A stretch of DNA of 64,000 nucleotides, taken from positions 2,915 through 66,914 of the forward strand of contig JAZNRC010000023.1 of the NCBI GenBank assembly GCA_045590555.1, in the 5' to 3' direction. The notes under the pieces are model-generated. The model did no database searches. It was not told the origin of the DNA and saw only the letters and a program-made list of their open reading frames with translations. The position numbers and the translations under genes are program-made. Positions 32,157 to 35,416 of this stretch are shown here, piece by piece. Each line of letters starts with the position of its first letter. The first letter of the stretch is position 1. The DNA comes from Lachnospiraceae bacterium (lineage in GTDB: Bacteria; Bacillota; Clostridia; Lachnospirales; Lachnospiraceae).

Positions 32157-32594
32157 TTATATCTTTTTATTTGTATCCTCGCAAGATAGGTCTCTTAACA
32201 CTGTATCAAATGCCGGAAACTCTTTTTTTAGGAATAGCGGTTTTCCGTCTTTATTTAAAAAGCAGTGCATGCTTTTTCCTTTTAGAATCAACTCTCCGGT
32301 AGCAGAATTTGTCATTGTGTATCGAATTACCAGCTTAATACCGTTATAACTTTCAATTTCGGGACAGATACAGACTTCGTCATCAAAAGTAGTCGATTTC
32401 TTGTATTCGCATTCAATGCCGATTACCGGAGAAACAATGCCGTCCGCTTCCAGTTTGGCATAGCCAAAGCCTATCTGATCCAAAAAATCCACTCTGGCTT
32501 CTTCCATCCAGCGCACATAATTGGAATGATGGGTGATGCCCATTTTATCCGTTTCGTAATAATTAACTTTATGAATGTATTCCTTCATTCCCAA
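32157..32594 (-). CDS. Acyl-CoA thioesterase (YbgC/4HBT family)
   Basis: YYETDKMGITHHSNYVRWMEEAR motif. Confidence 0.9.
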   Translation of the reverse strand: MGMKEYIHKVNYYETDKMGITHHSNYVRWMEEARVDFLDQIGFGYAKLEADGIVSPVIGIECEYKKSTTFDDEVCICPEIESYNGIKLVIRYTMTNSATGELILKGKSMHCFLNKDGKPLFLKKEFPAFDTVLRDLSCEDTNKKI

Positions 32595-32824
32595 TCATCT
32601 CCCGACTATACGATTTATTCAAACATTACTAACATATTATCACGTTTTGTATTTTCCCGATAGCAGTTTTTTGGCTTAAAACATTGATTTAATTTGTGAA
32701 CATGGTTATAATGTACGCGTACACAATGAGCCAAGCGGTTGCAACGCAGAGATTTGACCAATGTGCGCGAAACATGATGAACGATTTGAAATCATGTAAT
32801 TATCTAAAAGGAATTAAGATAAAA

Positions 32825-33265
32825 ATGAAAAAATTACTTGAATTATATCGCAAGCACGAAGAAATTGTTAATTACCTGATTGTAGGAGTATGTACCACCA
32901 TCGTAAGTCTCCTGTCCTATCTGATTTCAACCCGTACTTTTCTGGATGTGGAGAATCCGGTTCAATTGCAGATTGCCAATATTATCAAATGGGTTTCCGG
33001 CGTTGTATTCGGCTATTTTACTAACCGTCGCTTTGTTTTTAAAAGTAAAAATAAAAACATGCTGGGAGAATTCCTTTCTTTCTCCGGCTCCCGTGTAGCT
33101 ACCCTCTTCCTGGATATGGGTATTATGGGACTGATGGTTTCCGTTATGGGCATCTGGGATATTATTGCTACCGGCGTATCCATGGTTCTGGTAACCGTCG
33201 CAAACTATGTTTTAAGTAAATTGATTGTCTTTCGTAAAAAGAAGAGCAAACCTGAGGGCAATTAG
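32825..33265 (+). CDS. GtrA family protein
   Basis: EIVNYLIVGVCTT, YFTNRRFVF, ANYVLSKLIVF; start MKKLLELY. Confidence 0.88.
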   Translation: MKKLLELYRKHEEIVNYLIVGVCTTIVSLLSYLISTRTFLDVENPVQLQIANIIKWVSGVVFGYFTNRRFVFKSKNKNMLGEFLSFSGSRVATLFLDMGIMGLMVSVMGIWDIIATGVSMVLVTVANYVLSKLIVFRKKKSKPEGN

Positions 33266-33297
33266 GTTAGAATATCTATTTTTATAGAGAATAATCT

Positions 33298-33346
33298 GAC
33301 AATAAAAAACAGAGCCGCAATATCTGCGACTCTGTTTTTTATTGTC
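33298..33346 (+). terminator. Long terminator hairpin after gtrA
   Basis: GACAATAAAAAACAGAG...CTCTGTTTTTTATTGTC 17-bp perfect IR. Confidence 0.75.
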
Positions 33347-33446
33347 GACGTCTTTTTATTGTTTTTATATATCTGCCATGCTACCCTACAAGTATCTGAA
33401 TTTCATTTCGGTGTTCCCGAGATATTCCCAGAGAATCATTTTAACA

Positions 33447-33477
33447 GGATAAATAACTCAATAAAGGACTTTACACC
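33447..33477 (+). repeat. Left 31-bp inverted repeat flanking small gene
   Basis: GGATAAATAACTCAATAAAGGACTTTACACC; 29/31 match to reverse complement of 33734-33764. Confidence 0.9.
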
Positions 33478-33498
33478 CCGACATAGCCATCTTATAAT
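33470..33498 (+). promoter_or_regulatory. Sigma-A promoter of small gene
   Basis: TTTACA-N17-TATAAT; the -35 lies inside the left IR. Confidence 0.7.
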
Positions 33499-33530
33499 AT
33501 AAACATATTATATGTAAGGTGGTGGAAAGT

Positions 33531-33710
33531 GTGGAAGATATGAATCAGTTTGAAGTAATTAATAATACTATTGATTATTATAAAGCATTACAAGCCATAA
33601 AACGTGCTAATACTTGCGATAATAAAGTACTGGATTATGAAATTAAAACTACTAAAGTCAAACTCGAAAAATTCGGAATTAATCTGCATGATTTAGATTT
33701 TGAAAATTAA
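33531..33710 (+). CDS. Small (~59 aa) hypothetical protein
   Basis: AAGGTGGT RBS 7 nt before GTG; own promoter and terminator; amphipathic helical sequence MEDMNQFEVINNTIDYY...KFGINLHDLDFEN. Confidence 0.75.
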   Translation: MEDMNQFEVINNTIDYYKALQAIKRANTCDNKVLDYEIKTTKVKLEKFGINLHDLDFEN

Positions 33711-33733
33711 ATCATTAAGTAACCTGTTAATTC

Positions 33734-33764
33734 GGTGTAAAGTCTTTTATTAAGTTATTTATCC
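33734..33764 (-). repeat. Right 31-bp inverted repeat flanking small gene
   Basis: GGTGTAAAGTCTTTTATTAAGTTATTTATCC. Confidence 0.9.
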
Positions 33765-33777
33765 GTCCTTTCATATA

Positions 33778-33812
33778 AAAAAGCGGCCTCCTCTAAAAGA
33801 AGAGACCGCTTT
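33778..33812. terminator. Bidirectional terminator between small gene and pyk
   Basis: AAAGCGG-cctcctctaaaagaagaga-CCGCTTT with A/T flanks, between convergent genes. Confidence 0.7.
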
Positions 33813-33815
33813 ATT

Positions 33816-35231
33816 TTATACTACCTGTACTTTAATCATATTGGTGGTTCCGGAAATACCGATGGGCACACCGGAAGTAATAACCGCCACATCACCTTTC
33901 TCAAGGTAACCATTTTCTTCAGACACATTAATCGCATGCTCAAAAAGTCCGAAAACTTCCTGTTTTTCACGCACAACCAAAGGTGCCACACCCCAAGATA
34001 AGTTGAGCTGACGGCTAACCTTTTCGTCGGTGGTACATCCGATTACATCACAGTCGGGACGATATCTCGATATCATATAGGCCGAACGACCGGATTTGGT
34101 TACGGTTACAATCGCCTTAGCATTCAAGTCATGGGCGGTTGTACAGGTTGCATGACAAATAGCATCGGTAATATCGGGGTTTGCCTTGCGGTCGCGGTTA
34201 AAAAATCTCTTGCGGTAATCAATATCCGCCTCCGTACGCTCTGCAATGCGAACCATAGTCGCCAAAGCCTGCACGGGATATGCCCCTGCTGCCGTTTCAC
34301 CGGATAGCATGATGGCACTGGTGCCGTCGTAGATTGCATTGGCAACGTCAGCTGTCTCTGCACGGGTAGGTCTGGGATTCTTCATCATGGAATCCAACAT
34401 CTGTGTTGCAGTAATAACTACCTTACCTGCTTCGTATGCCTTCTTGATAATCATTTTCTGAATCACAGGCACGTCTTCTCCGGGAATTTCCACACCCATA
34501 TCACCACGGGCAACCATTACACCGTCGGAATTGGCAATGATATCATCAATGTTTTCAACACCTTCGCGGTTTTCGATTTTGGCAATAATATGAATATTCT
34601 GTCCGCCATTCTGGTCAAGCAACGTACGGATTGCAATCACATCATCCTCCGTACGTACAAAAGATGCCGCGATAAAATCCACATCCTGCTCAATACCAAA
34701 AATAATATCCTGTTTGTCCTTTTCACTTAAATACGGCATAGAAAGATGAGCATCCGGCACATTAACACCCTTTTTATTGGAAATCGTGCCACCATTTAAA
34801 ACCTTACAAACAATGTCCTTGCCCTCTAATTTCAGAACAATCATTTCAATAAGACCGTCATCAATGAGAATGCGGGTTCCCATGGACACGTCTCTGTAAA
34901 GAGTAGGATACGACAGGCTTACACCCTTCTCAGTTCCTGGCTGCTCATCAGAGTATAAAACAAACTCCTGCCCTTCTTTTAACTCTACTTTACCGTTCTC
35001 GAAATCGCGAATACGAACCTCAGGTCCCTTGGTATCCAAAAGGATGCCCACAGGCTTGCCTGCTGCCGCCCTCGCTGCTTTTAAACGATCCATTCTAGCT
35101 TTATGTTCTTCGTAACTGCCGTGTGAAAAGTTGCATCTGGCAACATTCATACCGGTTTCGATTAATTTCTCTACAATACCTTCTTTGTCCGTTGCAGGAC
35201 CCATTGTGCAGATGATTTTTGTTTTACGCAT
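33816..35231 (-). CDS. pyk: Pyruvate kinase
   Basis: MRKTKIICTMGP, ARCNFSHG, LDTKGPE, IAKIEN, DGVMVARGDMGVE, ATQMLDSM, MLSGETA. Confidence 0.97.
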   Translation of the reverse strand: MRKTKIICTMGPATDKEGIVEKLIETGMNVARCNFSHGSYEEHKARMDRLKAARAAAGKPVGILLDTKGPEVRIRDFENGKVELKEGQEFVLYSDEQPGTEKGVSLSYPTLYRDVSMGTRILIDDGLIEMIVLKLEGKDIVCKVLNGGTISNKKGVNVPDAHLSMPYLSEKDKQDIIFGIEQDVDFIAASFVRTEDDVIAIRTLLDQNGGQNIHIIAKIENREGVENIDDIIANSDGVMVARGDMGVEIPGEDVPVIQKMIIKKAYEAGKVVITATQMLDSMMKNPRPTRAETADVANAIYDGTSAIMLSGETAAGAYPVQALATMVRIAERTEADIDYRKRFFNRDRKANPDITDAICHATCTTAHDLNAKAIVTVTKSGRSAYMISRYRPDCDVIGCTTDEKVSRQLNLSWGVAPLVVREKQEVFGLFEHAINVSEENGYLEKGDVAVITSGVPIGISGTTNMIKVQVV

Positions 35232-35416
35232 ATAGATACTCTCTTTTCTTTTATAATAGGAGACCAATATCCCCTGAAATCGACATACACAGCTATTATG
35301 GCAAATTATGGGATAAGCGTCAACCTTTTTGGCTATTTTTCAATGATTATCCTTATACTAAAATAGATTTCCCCATCTAATATTCTTTATACCTAAGATT
35401 AATATTTTCACTAATA

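What the first reader, a model, noticed from the sequence alone, without database searches (positions are those of the whole stretch)
33447..33764. Small self-contained gene cassette enclosed by 31-bp inverted repeats
Seen: GGATAAATAACTCAATAAAGGACTTTACACC (33447-33477) and its 29/31 inverted copy (33734-33764) bracket a 256-bp interior. The unit contains a sigma-A promoter (TTTACA-N17-TATAAT, with the -35 inside the left repeat), an RBS and one ~59-aa ORF. It sits between two strong terminators (33298-33346, 33778-33812). The right repeat places a second TTTACA pointing back into the gene, with only a weak -10 (TTAATG/TAATGA). The mRNA should start after the left repeat, so the pair probably acts at DNA level. 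No target-site duplication and no recombinase is visible. Inference: candidates are an invertible segment, a non-autonomous gene-carrying mini-element, or twin operator/-35 modules driving sense mRNA and an antisense RNA (toxin-antitoxin-like or regulatory switch). The protein is not hydrophobic, so it is not a classic type I toxin. From memory it resembles small uncharacterised Lachnospiraceae proteins, which I have not verified.
Basis: partly seen in the sequence, partly recalled or inferred. Interest (0 to 1): 0.75.

Follow-up and report, generated by a model that had tools for sequence, protein, structure and literature searches.

The report
Repeat-framed small-protein gene cassette
The 31-bp inverted repeat is real and frames one member of a widespread, apparently undescribed family of self-contained small-protein gene cassettes in gut Lachnospiraceae and their mobile elements, in which the promoter module recurs inverted behind the gene; it is not an invertible switch or a jumping element.

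Summary
In detail: 33447-33477 and 33734-33764 are a 29/31 inverted repeat with 0 matches expected by chance. They enclose a TTTACA-N17-TATAAT promoter, a strong ribosome-binding site and a real 59-aa gene (GTG 33531).

It is not a local oddity. At least 100 loci carry the same design around at least 7 unrelated small ORFs:
- a left module, TTGATAATTGAATAAAGGCTTTACAC, holding the -35;
- an ORF of 38-67 aa;
- an inverted copy of the module;
- usually a short third copy that pairs with the inverted copy as an RNA terminator hairpin (97.7% paired, with compensatory changes).

The window's lineage lost the third copy. Its right arm is still conserved (0.81-0.83 identity against 0.36-0.58 for neutral sites), and its length co-varies with the left arm.

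About a third of the loci lie in an integrative mobile-element backbone, where different ORFs occupy identical promoter/terminator frames.

Contigs from four metagenomes show one orientation. I found no target duplication, no nearby recombinase and no conserved antisense -10.

Best reading: both arms are sites for one shared DNA-binding regulator of a small-protein regulon. This is inferred; the factor is unknown. The small protein is a helical hairpin of unknown function.

The parts
33298..33346 (+). Intrinsic terminator of the upstream gtrA-like gene; isolates the cassette from upstream transcription
   Evidence: 22-nt arms, 95% complementary, 5-nt loop, flanked by A/T runs; GtrA Pfam hit for 32696-33262
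33447..33477 (+). Left arm: promoter module. The inner 18 nt (33460-33477, AATAAAGGACTTTACACC) are the family-wide conserved core; the outer 13 nt are lineage-specific
   Evidence: Mean pairwise identity among relatives is 0.89-0.92 for the inner part and 0.50-0.53 for the outer part. The same motif stands upstream of 106 cassettes
33470..33498 (+). Sigma-A-type promoter TTTACA-N17-TATAAT (type A layout); start of transcription inferred near 33505
   Evidence: 11/12 match; -10 identity 1.00 among relatives; the 17-18 nt spacing is kept in about 49 cassettes; the metatranscriptome contig covers 33529-33758 and not the left arm
33516..33525 (+). Ribosome-binding site AAGGTGGTGG
   Evidence: Read from the sequence; AAAGG[CT]GGTG is conserved in nearly all cassettes
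33531..33710 (+). Small-protein gene, 59 aa from GTG 33531 (open frame from 33519; the conserved MNQFEV starts at 33540); predicted helical hairpin, function unknown
   Evidence: ATG 33540 is ACG in one strain; helices 10-30 and 36-52, pLDDT 79.6; no Pfam, NCBIfam or PHROG family
33717..33724 (+). Conserved AAGTAACC motif just after the stop codon (adds a stop in a second frame); role unknown
   Evidence: (A)GTAAC(C/T) recurs after the stop in most cassettes
33734..33764 (-). Right arm: inverted copy of the promoter module in the 3' untranslated region. In canonical cassettes it forms the 5' half and loop of the terminator hairpin; here its pairing partner (the third copy) is lost
   Evidence: Inner 18 nt are 0.81-0.83 identical among relatives, against 0.36-0.40 for the adjacent 3'UTR and 0.33-0.34 downstream. 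The canonical hairpin is supported by 97.7% pairing and compensatory changes
33778..33812 (.). Two-way intrinsic terminator shared by the cassette and the convergent pyruvate kinase gene; replaces the family's own hairpin terminator
   Evidence: 15-pair stem with 7 GC pairs plus a T-run; pyruvate kinase Pfam hits for 33819-35267

Best explanation
WHAT IT IS (well supported, about 0.85). The locus is one chromosomal member of a family of modular, monocistronic small-protein expression cassettes. They are found in Lachnospiraceae chromosomes and in an integrative mobile-element backbone.

The canonical cassette has four parts:
- a 26-nt left module, TTGATAATTGAATAAAGGCTTTACAC. It carries two alternative -35 boxes, TTGAAT and TTTACA. 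These are used with a -10 placed either 18 nt after the first box (type B) or 17 nt after the second (type A, as in the window);
- a strong ribosome-binding site and an ORF of 38-67 aa;
- an inverted copy of the module;
- a short third direct copy, AAGGCTTTACACC, plus a U-run. It pairs with the inverted copy in the mRNA to form the terminator.

In the window's lineage the third copy was lost, and the pyruvate kinase terminator is used instead.

HOW THE ARMS WORK (inferred, about 0.4). The whole module is kept whichever -35 box is in use, so it is read as a unit by something other than sigma-A. The right arm stays conserved without its RNA partner, and its length co-varies with the left arm. 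The left arm is not part of the gene's own transcript.

I therefore propose that both arms are binding sites for one shared trans-acting DNA-binding regulator with a two-part site (TT[GC]AATAA and CTTTACAC). One site overlaps the core promoter and the other lies behind the gene. Together they put many small-protein genes under common control, as conjugative plasmids do with repeated promoter-operator modules ahead of their establishment genes.

The conserved 5' and 3' modules also serve as homology for swapping ORFs between cassettes.

The single confidence value given (0.5) is for the combined statement.
For: 1. The repeat is non-random.

2. Both arms flank the homologous gene in 15 other genomes whose neighbours are unrelated. 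Conservation starts and stops at the arms.

3. Census over 950 kb of retrieved DNA: 106 +/- motif pairs (85 unique) in 100 loci. They enclose at least 7 unrelated ORF families. The left motif is almost never found without a small ORF and a right copy.

4. Two promoter layouts share one motif: about 49 type A and about 51 type B.

5. The pairing of the inverted copy with the third copy is an RNA hairpin. 97.7% of cells pair, and 21 cells show changes on both sides; 0 of 500 shuffles reach this. G-U wobbles fall on the + strand.

6. In the clade that lacks the third copy, mean pairwise identity is:
- left arm, inner part: 0.89-0.92
- -10 box: 1.00
- right arm, inner part: 0.81-0.83
- codon position 3: 0.56-0.58
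- 3'UTR: 0.36-0.40
- flanks: 0.31-0.37.

7. Matched length changes in both arms. Canonical arms read AATAAAGGC / AATAAAGAC. In locus L012 (a related genome whose 4-kb stretch holds at least 6 cassettes in tandem) every cassette reads AATAAGGC / AATAAGAC. The window clade reads AATAAAGGAC / AATAAAAGAC. The window, L001 and L002 also share an extra GGATAAATAA outer segment in both arms.

8. The metatranscriptome contig covers the ORF and the right arm but not the left arm.

9. 32 loci lie in a backbone that encodes a DnaJ-like protein, RadC, a sigma-70-like protein, a GmrSD_N-like protein and a serine recombinase.

10. L059 and L115 have near-identical flanks, promoter and terminator but different ORFs.

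11. Precedent for repeated promoter-operator modules on Gram-positive conjugative plasmids: PMC8708921.
Against: - No regulator has been identified, and no binding has been tested.
- The two arms differ systematically (left TTGAAT..AAAGGC, right TTCAAT..AAAGAC), so they are not interchangeable copies.
- The spacing between the arms shows no helical phasing, so there is no sign of phased looping.
- Outside three lineage events, the outer 20 nt are no more alike within a cassette (0.67) than left arms are between cassettes (0.77).
- The start of transcription is inferred from the promoter and one low-depth contig, not mapped.
- Conservation of the right arm could reflect an RNA role in the 3'UTR.
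- The metagenome scan used an exact 26-mer, which biases the census toward canonical and mobile-element copies.
Confidence: 0.5

Rival explanations
1. RNA-level pairing. When the unit is transcribed from an upstream promoter, the left arm is in the RNA. It then pairs with the right arm (26-31 bp) and out-competes the hairpin between the right arm and the third copy. The cassette's terminator would therefore stop only transcripts from its own promoter and let operon transcripts pass. The long stem could also be an RNase III site.
For: The two arms are about 90-100% pairable over the inner 17 nt, and the commonest difference is a G-U wobble on the + strand (169 against 72 transitions). The right arm does act as an RNA hairpin half in canonical cassettes. 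Cassettes lie directly upstream of co-oriented genes with no promoter in between: C1 (a conserved 105-aa backbone ORF of unknown function), the sigma-like gene and the GmrSD_N-like gene in the mobile element, and MATE transporter genes in L010, L011 and L014.
Against: In the window a strong terminator lies 100 nt upstream of the left arm, and no third copy is left to antagonise, yet the right arm is conserved. A G-G mismatch at one position is kept in 34 of 51 cassettes. The only transcript contig lacks the left arm.
Confidence: 0.12
2. Non-autonomous mobile insertion cassette (MIC- or MITE-like). The arms would be terminal inverted repeats recognised by a transposase encoded elsewhere.
For: The unit sits in a different genomic context in nearly every genus and also inside mobile elements. 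Conservation ends at the arms. Contigs of a roughly 93%-identical relative lose similarity 8 nt left and 7 nt right of the arms.
Against: There is no target-site duplication. No element with these ends and a transposase turned up in 950 kb of retrieved DNA. The right arm is embedded in an RNA hairpin with compensatory changes, and the third copy lies outside the supposed end. The position is syntenic and stable in three species and four metagenomes. ORF exchange breakpoints lie inside the arms, at the ribosome-binding site and the right arm. No match in 50,697 phage records.
Confidence: 0.1
3. Integron-like cassette system. The palindrome formed by the right arm and the third copy would be an attC-like recombination site, and the direct copies of AAGGCTTTACAC (left inner part and third copy) would be crossover cores for a site-specific recombinase.
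For: One small ORF is followed by one imperfect 45-bp palindrome. L012 holds a same-orientation tandem array of at least 6 cassettes. Different cassettes occupy the same slot of one mobile-element backbone. A serine recombinase is present on that backbone.
Against: Arrays are rare: 96 of 100 loci hold a single cassette. Every cassette has its own promoter. No integron integrase was seen. The one resolved exchange (L059 against L115) has its breakpoints at the ribosome-binding site and the right arm, not at the direct cores. Cassettes occur in both orientations in the slot.
Confidence: 0.07
4. Convergent sense and antisense promoters. The right arm would drive an antisense RNA against the small mRNA (type I toxin-antitoxin-like or a regulatory switch).
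For: The right arm carries the same -35-like boxes facing inward. In about 40% of type B cassettes a GATAAT lies 17 nt from TTCAAT.
Against: In the window clade no hexamer with A2/T6 lies 16-18 nt from TTTACA (TTAATG, CTAAAA, GTAATG, TCTTTA ...). The critical G of the -35 is C in almost all right arms. The protein is hydrophilic and helical, with no toxin family hit.
Confidence: 0.07
5. Invertible DNA segment (phase-variable switch) flipped by a recombinase acting on the arms.
For: Geometry only: 31-bp inverted repeats around about 260 bp that contain a promoter.
Against: A complete gene with its own promoter lies inside and terminators lie on both sides, so flipping would change nothing. Orientation relative to the ORF is fixed by definition, and orientation relative to neighbours is the same in L001, L002 and the contigs of four metagenomes, with no strand-switch joints. 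No recombinase is nearby. The arms differ systematically.
Confidence: 0.03
6. Functionless local inverted duplication.
For: None beyond its existence.
Against: Both arms are conserved well above neutral sites across at least 6 lineages and in more than 100 cassettes.
Confidence: 0.02

Closest known systems
Establishment-gene regulons of Gram-positive conjugative plasmids (p576 promoter/Reg576-operator modules; pLS20 EGeRS1), PMC8708921
   Same: One conserved promoter/regulatory module is repeated in front of several small, mostly uncharacterised mobile-element genes. This implies common control by one element-encoded factor. They cluster in an accessory, anti-defence-like region.
   Different: Here the module also recurs inverted behind each gene and again, in part, as the 3' half of the terminator. 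No regulator is known. The units are monocistronic, and some are stranded in housekeeping chromosome regions such as this window.
Mobile insertion cassettes and MITEs (my recollection: MIC231 of Bacillus cereus; Correia elements of Neisseria)
   Same: Short inverted-repeat-bounded units that carry a passenger gene or promoter and terminator signals, and that are scattered over genomes.
   Different: No target duplication, no cognate IS and no sign of recent movement. The arms are differentiated into a promoter module and a terminator half.
Integron gene cassettes with attC sites
   Same: A small ORF followed by an imperfect palindrome; one tandem array; different cassettes at one slot.
   Different: Each unit has its own promoter. 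There is no IntI or attI. The palindrome is shorter (about 45 bp) and behaves as an RNA terminator. The observed exchange looks like homologous recombination.
Invertible promoters (my recollection: fimS, Bacteroides and Clostridioides difficile switches)
   Same: Inverted repeats of 20-30 bp around a promoter-bearing segment of 200-300 bp.
   Different: The whole gene lies inside, only one orientation is seen, and there is no recombinase.
Repeated palindromic terminator-like elements (my recollection: REP/BIME, BOX, RUP)
   Same: A sequence-conserved hairpin is reused behind many genes and acts as a terminator or stabiliser.
   Different: Here the hairpin sequence is also the promoter module of the same gene, and it always comes with a small ORF.

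Membership tests
Sigma-A (sigma-70 type) promoter | -35 and -10 hexamers close to TTGACA/TATAAT, 16-18 nt apart | tested here: met
   TTTACA-17-TATAAT, 11/12; -10 invariant and spacing kept in relatives. Activity was not tested; one metatranscriptome contig shows the gene is expressed.
Intrinsic terminator (canonical hairpin of the right arm with the third copy) | GC-containing RNA hairpin followed by a U-run, with pairing maintained in evolution | tested here: met
   For the family: 15-pair helix, 97.7% paired, 4 pairs with compensatory changes, T-run after the stem. For the window itself: not met, because the third copy is lost and 33778-33812 is used instead.
Invertible DNA switch (inverton) | Both orientations present in a population | tested here: not met
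   Contigs of 4 metagenomes are colinear with no joints; the orientation is the same in L001 and L002. Contigs miss rare variants, so low-frequency flipping is not excluded.
Invertible DNA switch (inverton) | Site-specific recombinase nearby, and a regulatory consequence of flipping | tested here: not met
   Neighbours are a peptidase, an exonuclease, a thioesterase, GtrA, pyruvate kinase and an AraC-type regulator. The gene, its promoter and the terminators are all inside or symmetric.
MITE / mobile insertion cassette | Target-site duplication flanking the terminal repeats | tested here: not met
   Flanks are TTTTAACA and GTCCTTTC; no consistent duplication in other cassettes.
MITE / mobile insertion cassette | Cognate autonomous element with the same ends; presence/absence polymorphism | tested here: inconclusive
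   No such element was seen in 950 kb of retrieved DNA, and no polymorphism in 4 metagenomes. Whole genomes could not be searched.
Integron gene cassette | attC with conserved core and inverse-core sites, recombined by an IntI integrase at an attI platform | tested here: not met
   No tyrosine integrase or attI next to the cassettes or the L012 array. The palindrome acts as a terminator. Recombination itself is not testable here.
Type I toxin-antitoxin / cis-antisense pair | Small hydrophobic toxin plus a conserved antisense RNA promoter | tested here: not met
   Hydrophilic helical hairpin; no conserved antisense -10. Antisense transcription itself was not measured.
Single-stranded-DNA promoter of conjugative leading regions (Frpo type) | Local hairpin that rebuilds -35 and -10 in the transferred strand; genes all in one orientation relative to transfer | tested here: not met
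   The -10 lies outside the repeat, the ORF would sit in the loop, and cassettes occur in both orientations in the mobile-element slot.
Repeated promoter-operator regulon (p576-like) | The same module ahead of several genes | tested here: met
   106 cassettes with at least 7 ORF families share the module.
Repeated promoter-operator regulon (p576-like) | A cognate repressor that binds the module | not testable with these tools
   No candidate was shown to bind. A sigma-70_r2-like protein and a 105-aa protein are linked to the mobile-element copies, but neither is in the window.

The most novel reading that the evidence does not exclude
Gut Lachnospiraceae and their integrative elements would carry a previously unrecognised promoter-bearing gene-cassette system. 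It consists of small helical proteins in standardised frames made of a left module, an inverted copy and a third copy. The triple repeat would be the operator set of an element-encoded regulator, giving a burst of establishment or anti-defence proteins on entry into a new cell. It would also be the handle by which ORFs are swapped between frames. Copies such as the one in this window would be stranded or domesticated members.
Probability: 0.2. Interest if true: 0.8.

Novelty: new variant of a known kind. Interest (0 to 1): 0.6.

Why it matters
Small proteins are the least understood part of gut bacterial genomes. Here more than a hundred small-protein genes from at least seven unrelated families share one 26-nt control module and one terminator, which points to a single unknown regulator and a common biological occasion for their expression. 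Because many copies sit next to RadC, a sigma-like factor and a recombinase on integrative elements, and ORFs are exchanged between identical frames, the cassettes may be a toolbox for element establishment or host manipulation. The motif gives a simple handle to find the genes, to fish for the regulator, and to build compact, insulated expression units for Lachnospiraceae, which are hard to engineer.

Tried and rejected
- Rfam scan of 32500-34500 at E<=10: only sub-threshold chance hits to the terminators.
- Pfam, NCBIfam and PHROG scans of the target protein and four other cassette proteins: nothing significant. The best were SAM_DprA at E=0.0018 for a family F2 protein and HATPase_c_5 at E=0.052 for the target, both below cut-off.
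- Structure search of the AlphaFold model against the PDB: no match below E=1, only generic helical hairpins.
- Exact search for the 31-mer in one genome per species: no hit, because the outer arm is lineage-specific.
- Search for a canonical cassette in 50,697 phage records: no match.
- Scan of viral contigs with the window-type core: only unpaired chance hits.
- RNA runs: one low-depth metatranscriptome contig for the window and nothing usable for a canonical cassette, so no 5'-end or antisense mapping was possible.
- Helical phasing of the distance between the arms: none.
- Long-range mRNA fold: RNAalifold pairs the right arm weakly with the ribosome-binding site through G-U pairs (-10 kcal/mol consensus). 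I judged this unconvincing.
- An apparent anti-SD/SD covariation upstream of the -10 rests on a single event and lies in untranscribed DNA, so I dropped it.
- Sigma-H, sigma-G/F, sigma-K, TcdR-type, Spo0A-box, CodY and cre readings of the motif, checked by eye against consensus sequences I remember: none fits.
- Literature searches on the topic and on the motif strings: no description found.
Full report
1. THE OBSERVATION

The window has a 31-nt inverted repeat with arms at 33447-33477 and 33734-33764. The arms match at 29/31 positions and lie 256 nt apart. With up to three mismatches these are the only two copies in 64 kb, and none is expected by chance.

- Promoter: TTTACA-N17-TATAAT at 33470-33498, an 11/12 match, with its -35 inside the left arm.
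- Ribosome-binding site: AAGGTGGTGG follows the promoter.
- Reading frame: open from 33519 to 33710.
- Terminators: 33298-33346 upstream and 33780-33812 downstream.
- Neighbours: a GtrA-family gene upstream and a convergent pyruvate kinase downstream, among ordinary housekeeping genes and with no recombinase.
- Outer flanks: no direct repeat.

The description is therefore correct.

2. THE GENE IS REAL

The protein has 92 relatives (clusters at 90% identity) that are 70-100% identical to it. A profile search finds 181 representative clusters, almost all stand-alone proteins of 52-95 aa.

Across species, codon positions 1 and 2 are 0.91-0.94 identical and position 3 only 0.56-0.58.

The start is most likely GTG 33531, giving 59 aa. 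It aligns with the ATG of relatives. In one natural strain the internal ATG at 33540 reads ACG.

The predicted fold is a helical hairpin with helices at 10-30 and 36-52 and a pLDDT of 79.6. No Pfam, NCBIfam or PHROG family matches, and no PDB structure matches below E=1. Its function remains unknown.

3. THE ARMS TRAVEL WITH THE GENE

Fifteen loci from other Lachnospiraceae and Acetatifactor genomes encode the homologue. Only two of them, L001 and L002, share the window's neighbours. The rest sit in unrelated contexts.

In nearly all of them both arms are present, and sequence conservation begins and ends at the arms.

4. IT IS A GENERAL CASSETTE DESIGN

The motif core recurs in these loci as +/- pairs around other small ORFs. 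One contig, L012, holds at least six such units in tandem.

I scanned viral and metagenome contigs with the motif. The retrieved DNA totalled 950 kb and gave 106 cassettes, 85 of them unique, in 100 loci. They enclose at least seven unrelated ORF families of 38-67 aa. The target family and its divergent paralogues are the largest group.

The canonical unit reads, in order:
- cAcATTGATAATTGAATAAAGGCTTTACAC;
- a -10 box;
- AAAGG[CT]GGTG;
- the ORF;
- CTAAGGTGTAAAGTCTTTATTGAATTATCAAGGCTTTACACCTTTTTTAATT.

Two promoter layouts use the same motif:
- type A: TTTACA-N17/18-TATAAT, about 49 cassettes, including the window;
- type B: TTGAAT-N18-TGnTATAAT, about 51 cassettes, where CTTTACAC lies in the spacer.

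The whole motif is kept in both layouts, including the part that sigma-A does not need. It is therefore read as a unit by something else.

Motif hits outside cassettes fall into four groups: diverged right arms, third copies, contig ends and chance hits in coding DNA. The left motif was not seen directly driving a large gene.

5. WHAT THE RIGHT ARM IS

In canonical cassettes the right arm pairs with a short third direct copy (AAGGCTTTACACC) that is followed by a T-run.

On 32 distinct sequences the 15-pair helix is 97.7% paired. Four pairs show compensatory changes, in 21 cells; 0 of 500 shuffles reach this. G-U wobbles fall on the + strand. This is an RNA terminator hairpin. A diverged example, L117, keeps the pairing while drifting away from the left arm.

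The right arm is thus ancestrally the 5' half plus the loop of the cassette's own terminator.

6. THE WINDOW'S LINEAGE

The window, L001-L005, L007 and L008 lack the third copy and end at other terminators. L015 keeps a degenerate third copy. Even so, mean pairwise identity among these nine sequences is:

| Region | Identity |
|---|---|
| Right arm, inner 18 nt | 0.81-0.83 |
| Left arm, inner part | 0.89-0.92 |
| -10 box | 1.00 |
| Third codon positions | 0.56-0.58 |
| 3'UTR | 0.36-0.40 |
| Flanks | 0.31-0.37 |
| Outer 13 nt of each arm | 0.50-0.58 |

The right arm therefore has a function that does not depend on the terminator.

The arms also change length together:
- canonical arms: AATAAAGGC / AATAAAGAC;
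- every cassette of L012: AATAAGGC / AATAAGAC;
- the window clade: AATAAAGGAC / AATAAAAGAC.

The window, L001 and L002 also share an extra GGATAAATAA segment in both arms. This is why the repeat here is 31 nt rather than about 26.

The neighbouring fixed difference between the arms (G against A) is kept. Simple gene conversion between the arms is therefore an unlikely cause.

Outside these events there is no general concerted evolution of the outer arms. Identity is 0.67 within a cassette, against 0.77 for left arms between cassettes.

Inversion. Contigs of four sheep, goat and other gut metagenomes are colinear with the window, in one orientation and without joints. The arms carry no variants. 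The whole gene with its promoter lies inside, so flipping would have no consequence.

Mobile mini-element. There is no target duplication, no cognate element and no presence/absence polymorphism. The position is syntenic in three species. On the other side, the unit lies in different contexts in different genera. Contigs of a roughly 93%-identical relative lose similarity just outside the arms.

Antisense or toxin-antitoxin. In the window clade the hexamers 16-18 nt from the inward TTTACA lack the essential A2/T6. In type B cassettes GATAAT is present in only about 40%. The -35 G is C in almost all right arms.

RNA stem. The left arm lies upstream of the inferred start of transcription. The only transcript contig, at low depth, covers 33529-33758.

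8. LINK TO MOBILE ELEMENTS AND ORF SWAPPING

Thirty-two loci lie in one conserved backbone. It encodes:
- a DnaJ-like protein (C0);
- a 105-aa ORF of unknown function (C1);
- a sigma-70 region-2-like protein (C3);
- a GmrSD_N-like protein (C2);
- a RadC-like protein;
- a serine recombinase.

None of these is in the window.

Cassettes of different families occupy the slot between the divergently transcribed C0 and C1 genes, in either orientation.

L059 and L115 are near-identical in flanks, promoter, 5'UTR and terminator, yet they carry unrelated ORFs. The breakpoints lie at the ribosome-binding site and at the right arm. One relative, P0085, is a chimera of two families. The conserved 5' and 3' modules therefore act as homology for exchange.

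Some cassettes lie directly upstream of co-oriented genes with no promoter in between: C1 followed by the sigma-like gene, or MATE transporter genes. There they also supply the promoter and an attenuator-like hairpin.

9. MECHANISM

Shown:
- the repeat is conserved;
- the left arm is the promoter module;
- the right arm is a terminator half in canonical units;
- the right arm is conserved without its RNA partner;
- the lengths of the two arms co-vary.

Inferred: both arms are sites for one shared DNA-binding regulator with a two-part site, which places many small-protein genes under common control.

The nearest precedent is the repeated promoter-operator modules ahead of the establishment genes of Gram-positive conjugative plasmids (PMC8708921).

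I put this mechanism at about 0.4. The main alternatives are read-through RNA pairing (0.12), a trans-mobilised cassette (0.10), integron-like recombination (0.07) and antisense control (0.07).

Weaknesses: no factor is known, the arms differ systematically, there is no phasing, and the start of transcription is unmapped.

10. NOVELTY

I found no description of the motif or of this architecture. The building blocks (promoter, terminator hairpin, repeated regulatory module, mosaic recombination) are all known kinds. The combination appears new: one module used as the promoter, inverted as the terminator half, and always wrapped around a small ORF.

I rate it a new variant of a known kind and moderately interesting. 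The window's own copy is a stable chromosomal member, not an active switch.

Noticed in passing
window 32696-33346, compared with L001 2736-3000 and L002 2790-3000: The GtrA-family gene and its terminator stand between the thioesterase gene and the cassette in the window. They are absent from the two syntenic relatives, which instead have a 146-aa membrane-protein ORF between the cassette and pyruvate kinase. The cassette's neighbours therefore turn over while the cassette stays.
   Followed up: partly
window 33541: In one metagenome (run X3) the T of the internal ATG 33540 is C (ATG to ACG). This argues that translation starts upstream, at GTG 33531.
   Followed up: partly
L011 2730-3000: Between the left arm and the ribosome-binding site there are two tandem copies of a segment of roughly 80 nt (gatataatgagtgcaaacgag...ttttgcacat). 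Each copies the -10 region, so this cassette has a stretched, duplicated leader.
   Followed up: no
L012 2290-4052: A tandem array of at least six cassettes in one orientation alternates three ORF families and both promoter layouts. It is the only real array among 100 loci.
   Followed up: partly
P0085 (relative of the target protein): The protein is a chimera. The first 50 residues belong to the target family. The C-terminus (EGMSAEKIIEIIKY...) matches the MTGKE..IIKYIET family of other cassettes.
   Followed up: no
L002 1425-2104: An 81-aa ORF and a 145-aa ORF are inserted between the exonuclease and thioesterase genes. From memory they look like a HicA/HicB toxin-antitoxin pair. They are absent from the window and from L001.
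   Followed up: no
window 33717-33724 and the matching place in most cassettes: A conserved (A)AGTAAC(C) follows the stop codon and creates a second-frame stop. Its role (tandem stop or something else) is unexplained.
   Followed up: no
L010 3189-3290, L011 3189-3290, L014 1986-2100, L026 (viral contig) near C1: Cassettes lie directly upstream of co-oriented larger genes (MATE-type transporter genes; the operon of C1, the sigma-like gene and the GmrSD_N-like gene) with no visible promoter in between. There the cassette may act as a portable promoter plus leader and attenuator.
   Followed up: partly
L042 4266, L044 940, L052 1765: Shorter versions of the terminator hairpin (GTAAAGTCTATTTAATTCAAGGCTTTACAC plus a T-run) stand alone behind other genes. 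The hairpin is therefore also reused without the promoter module.
   Followed up: no
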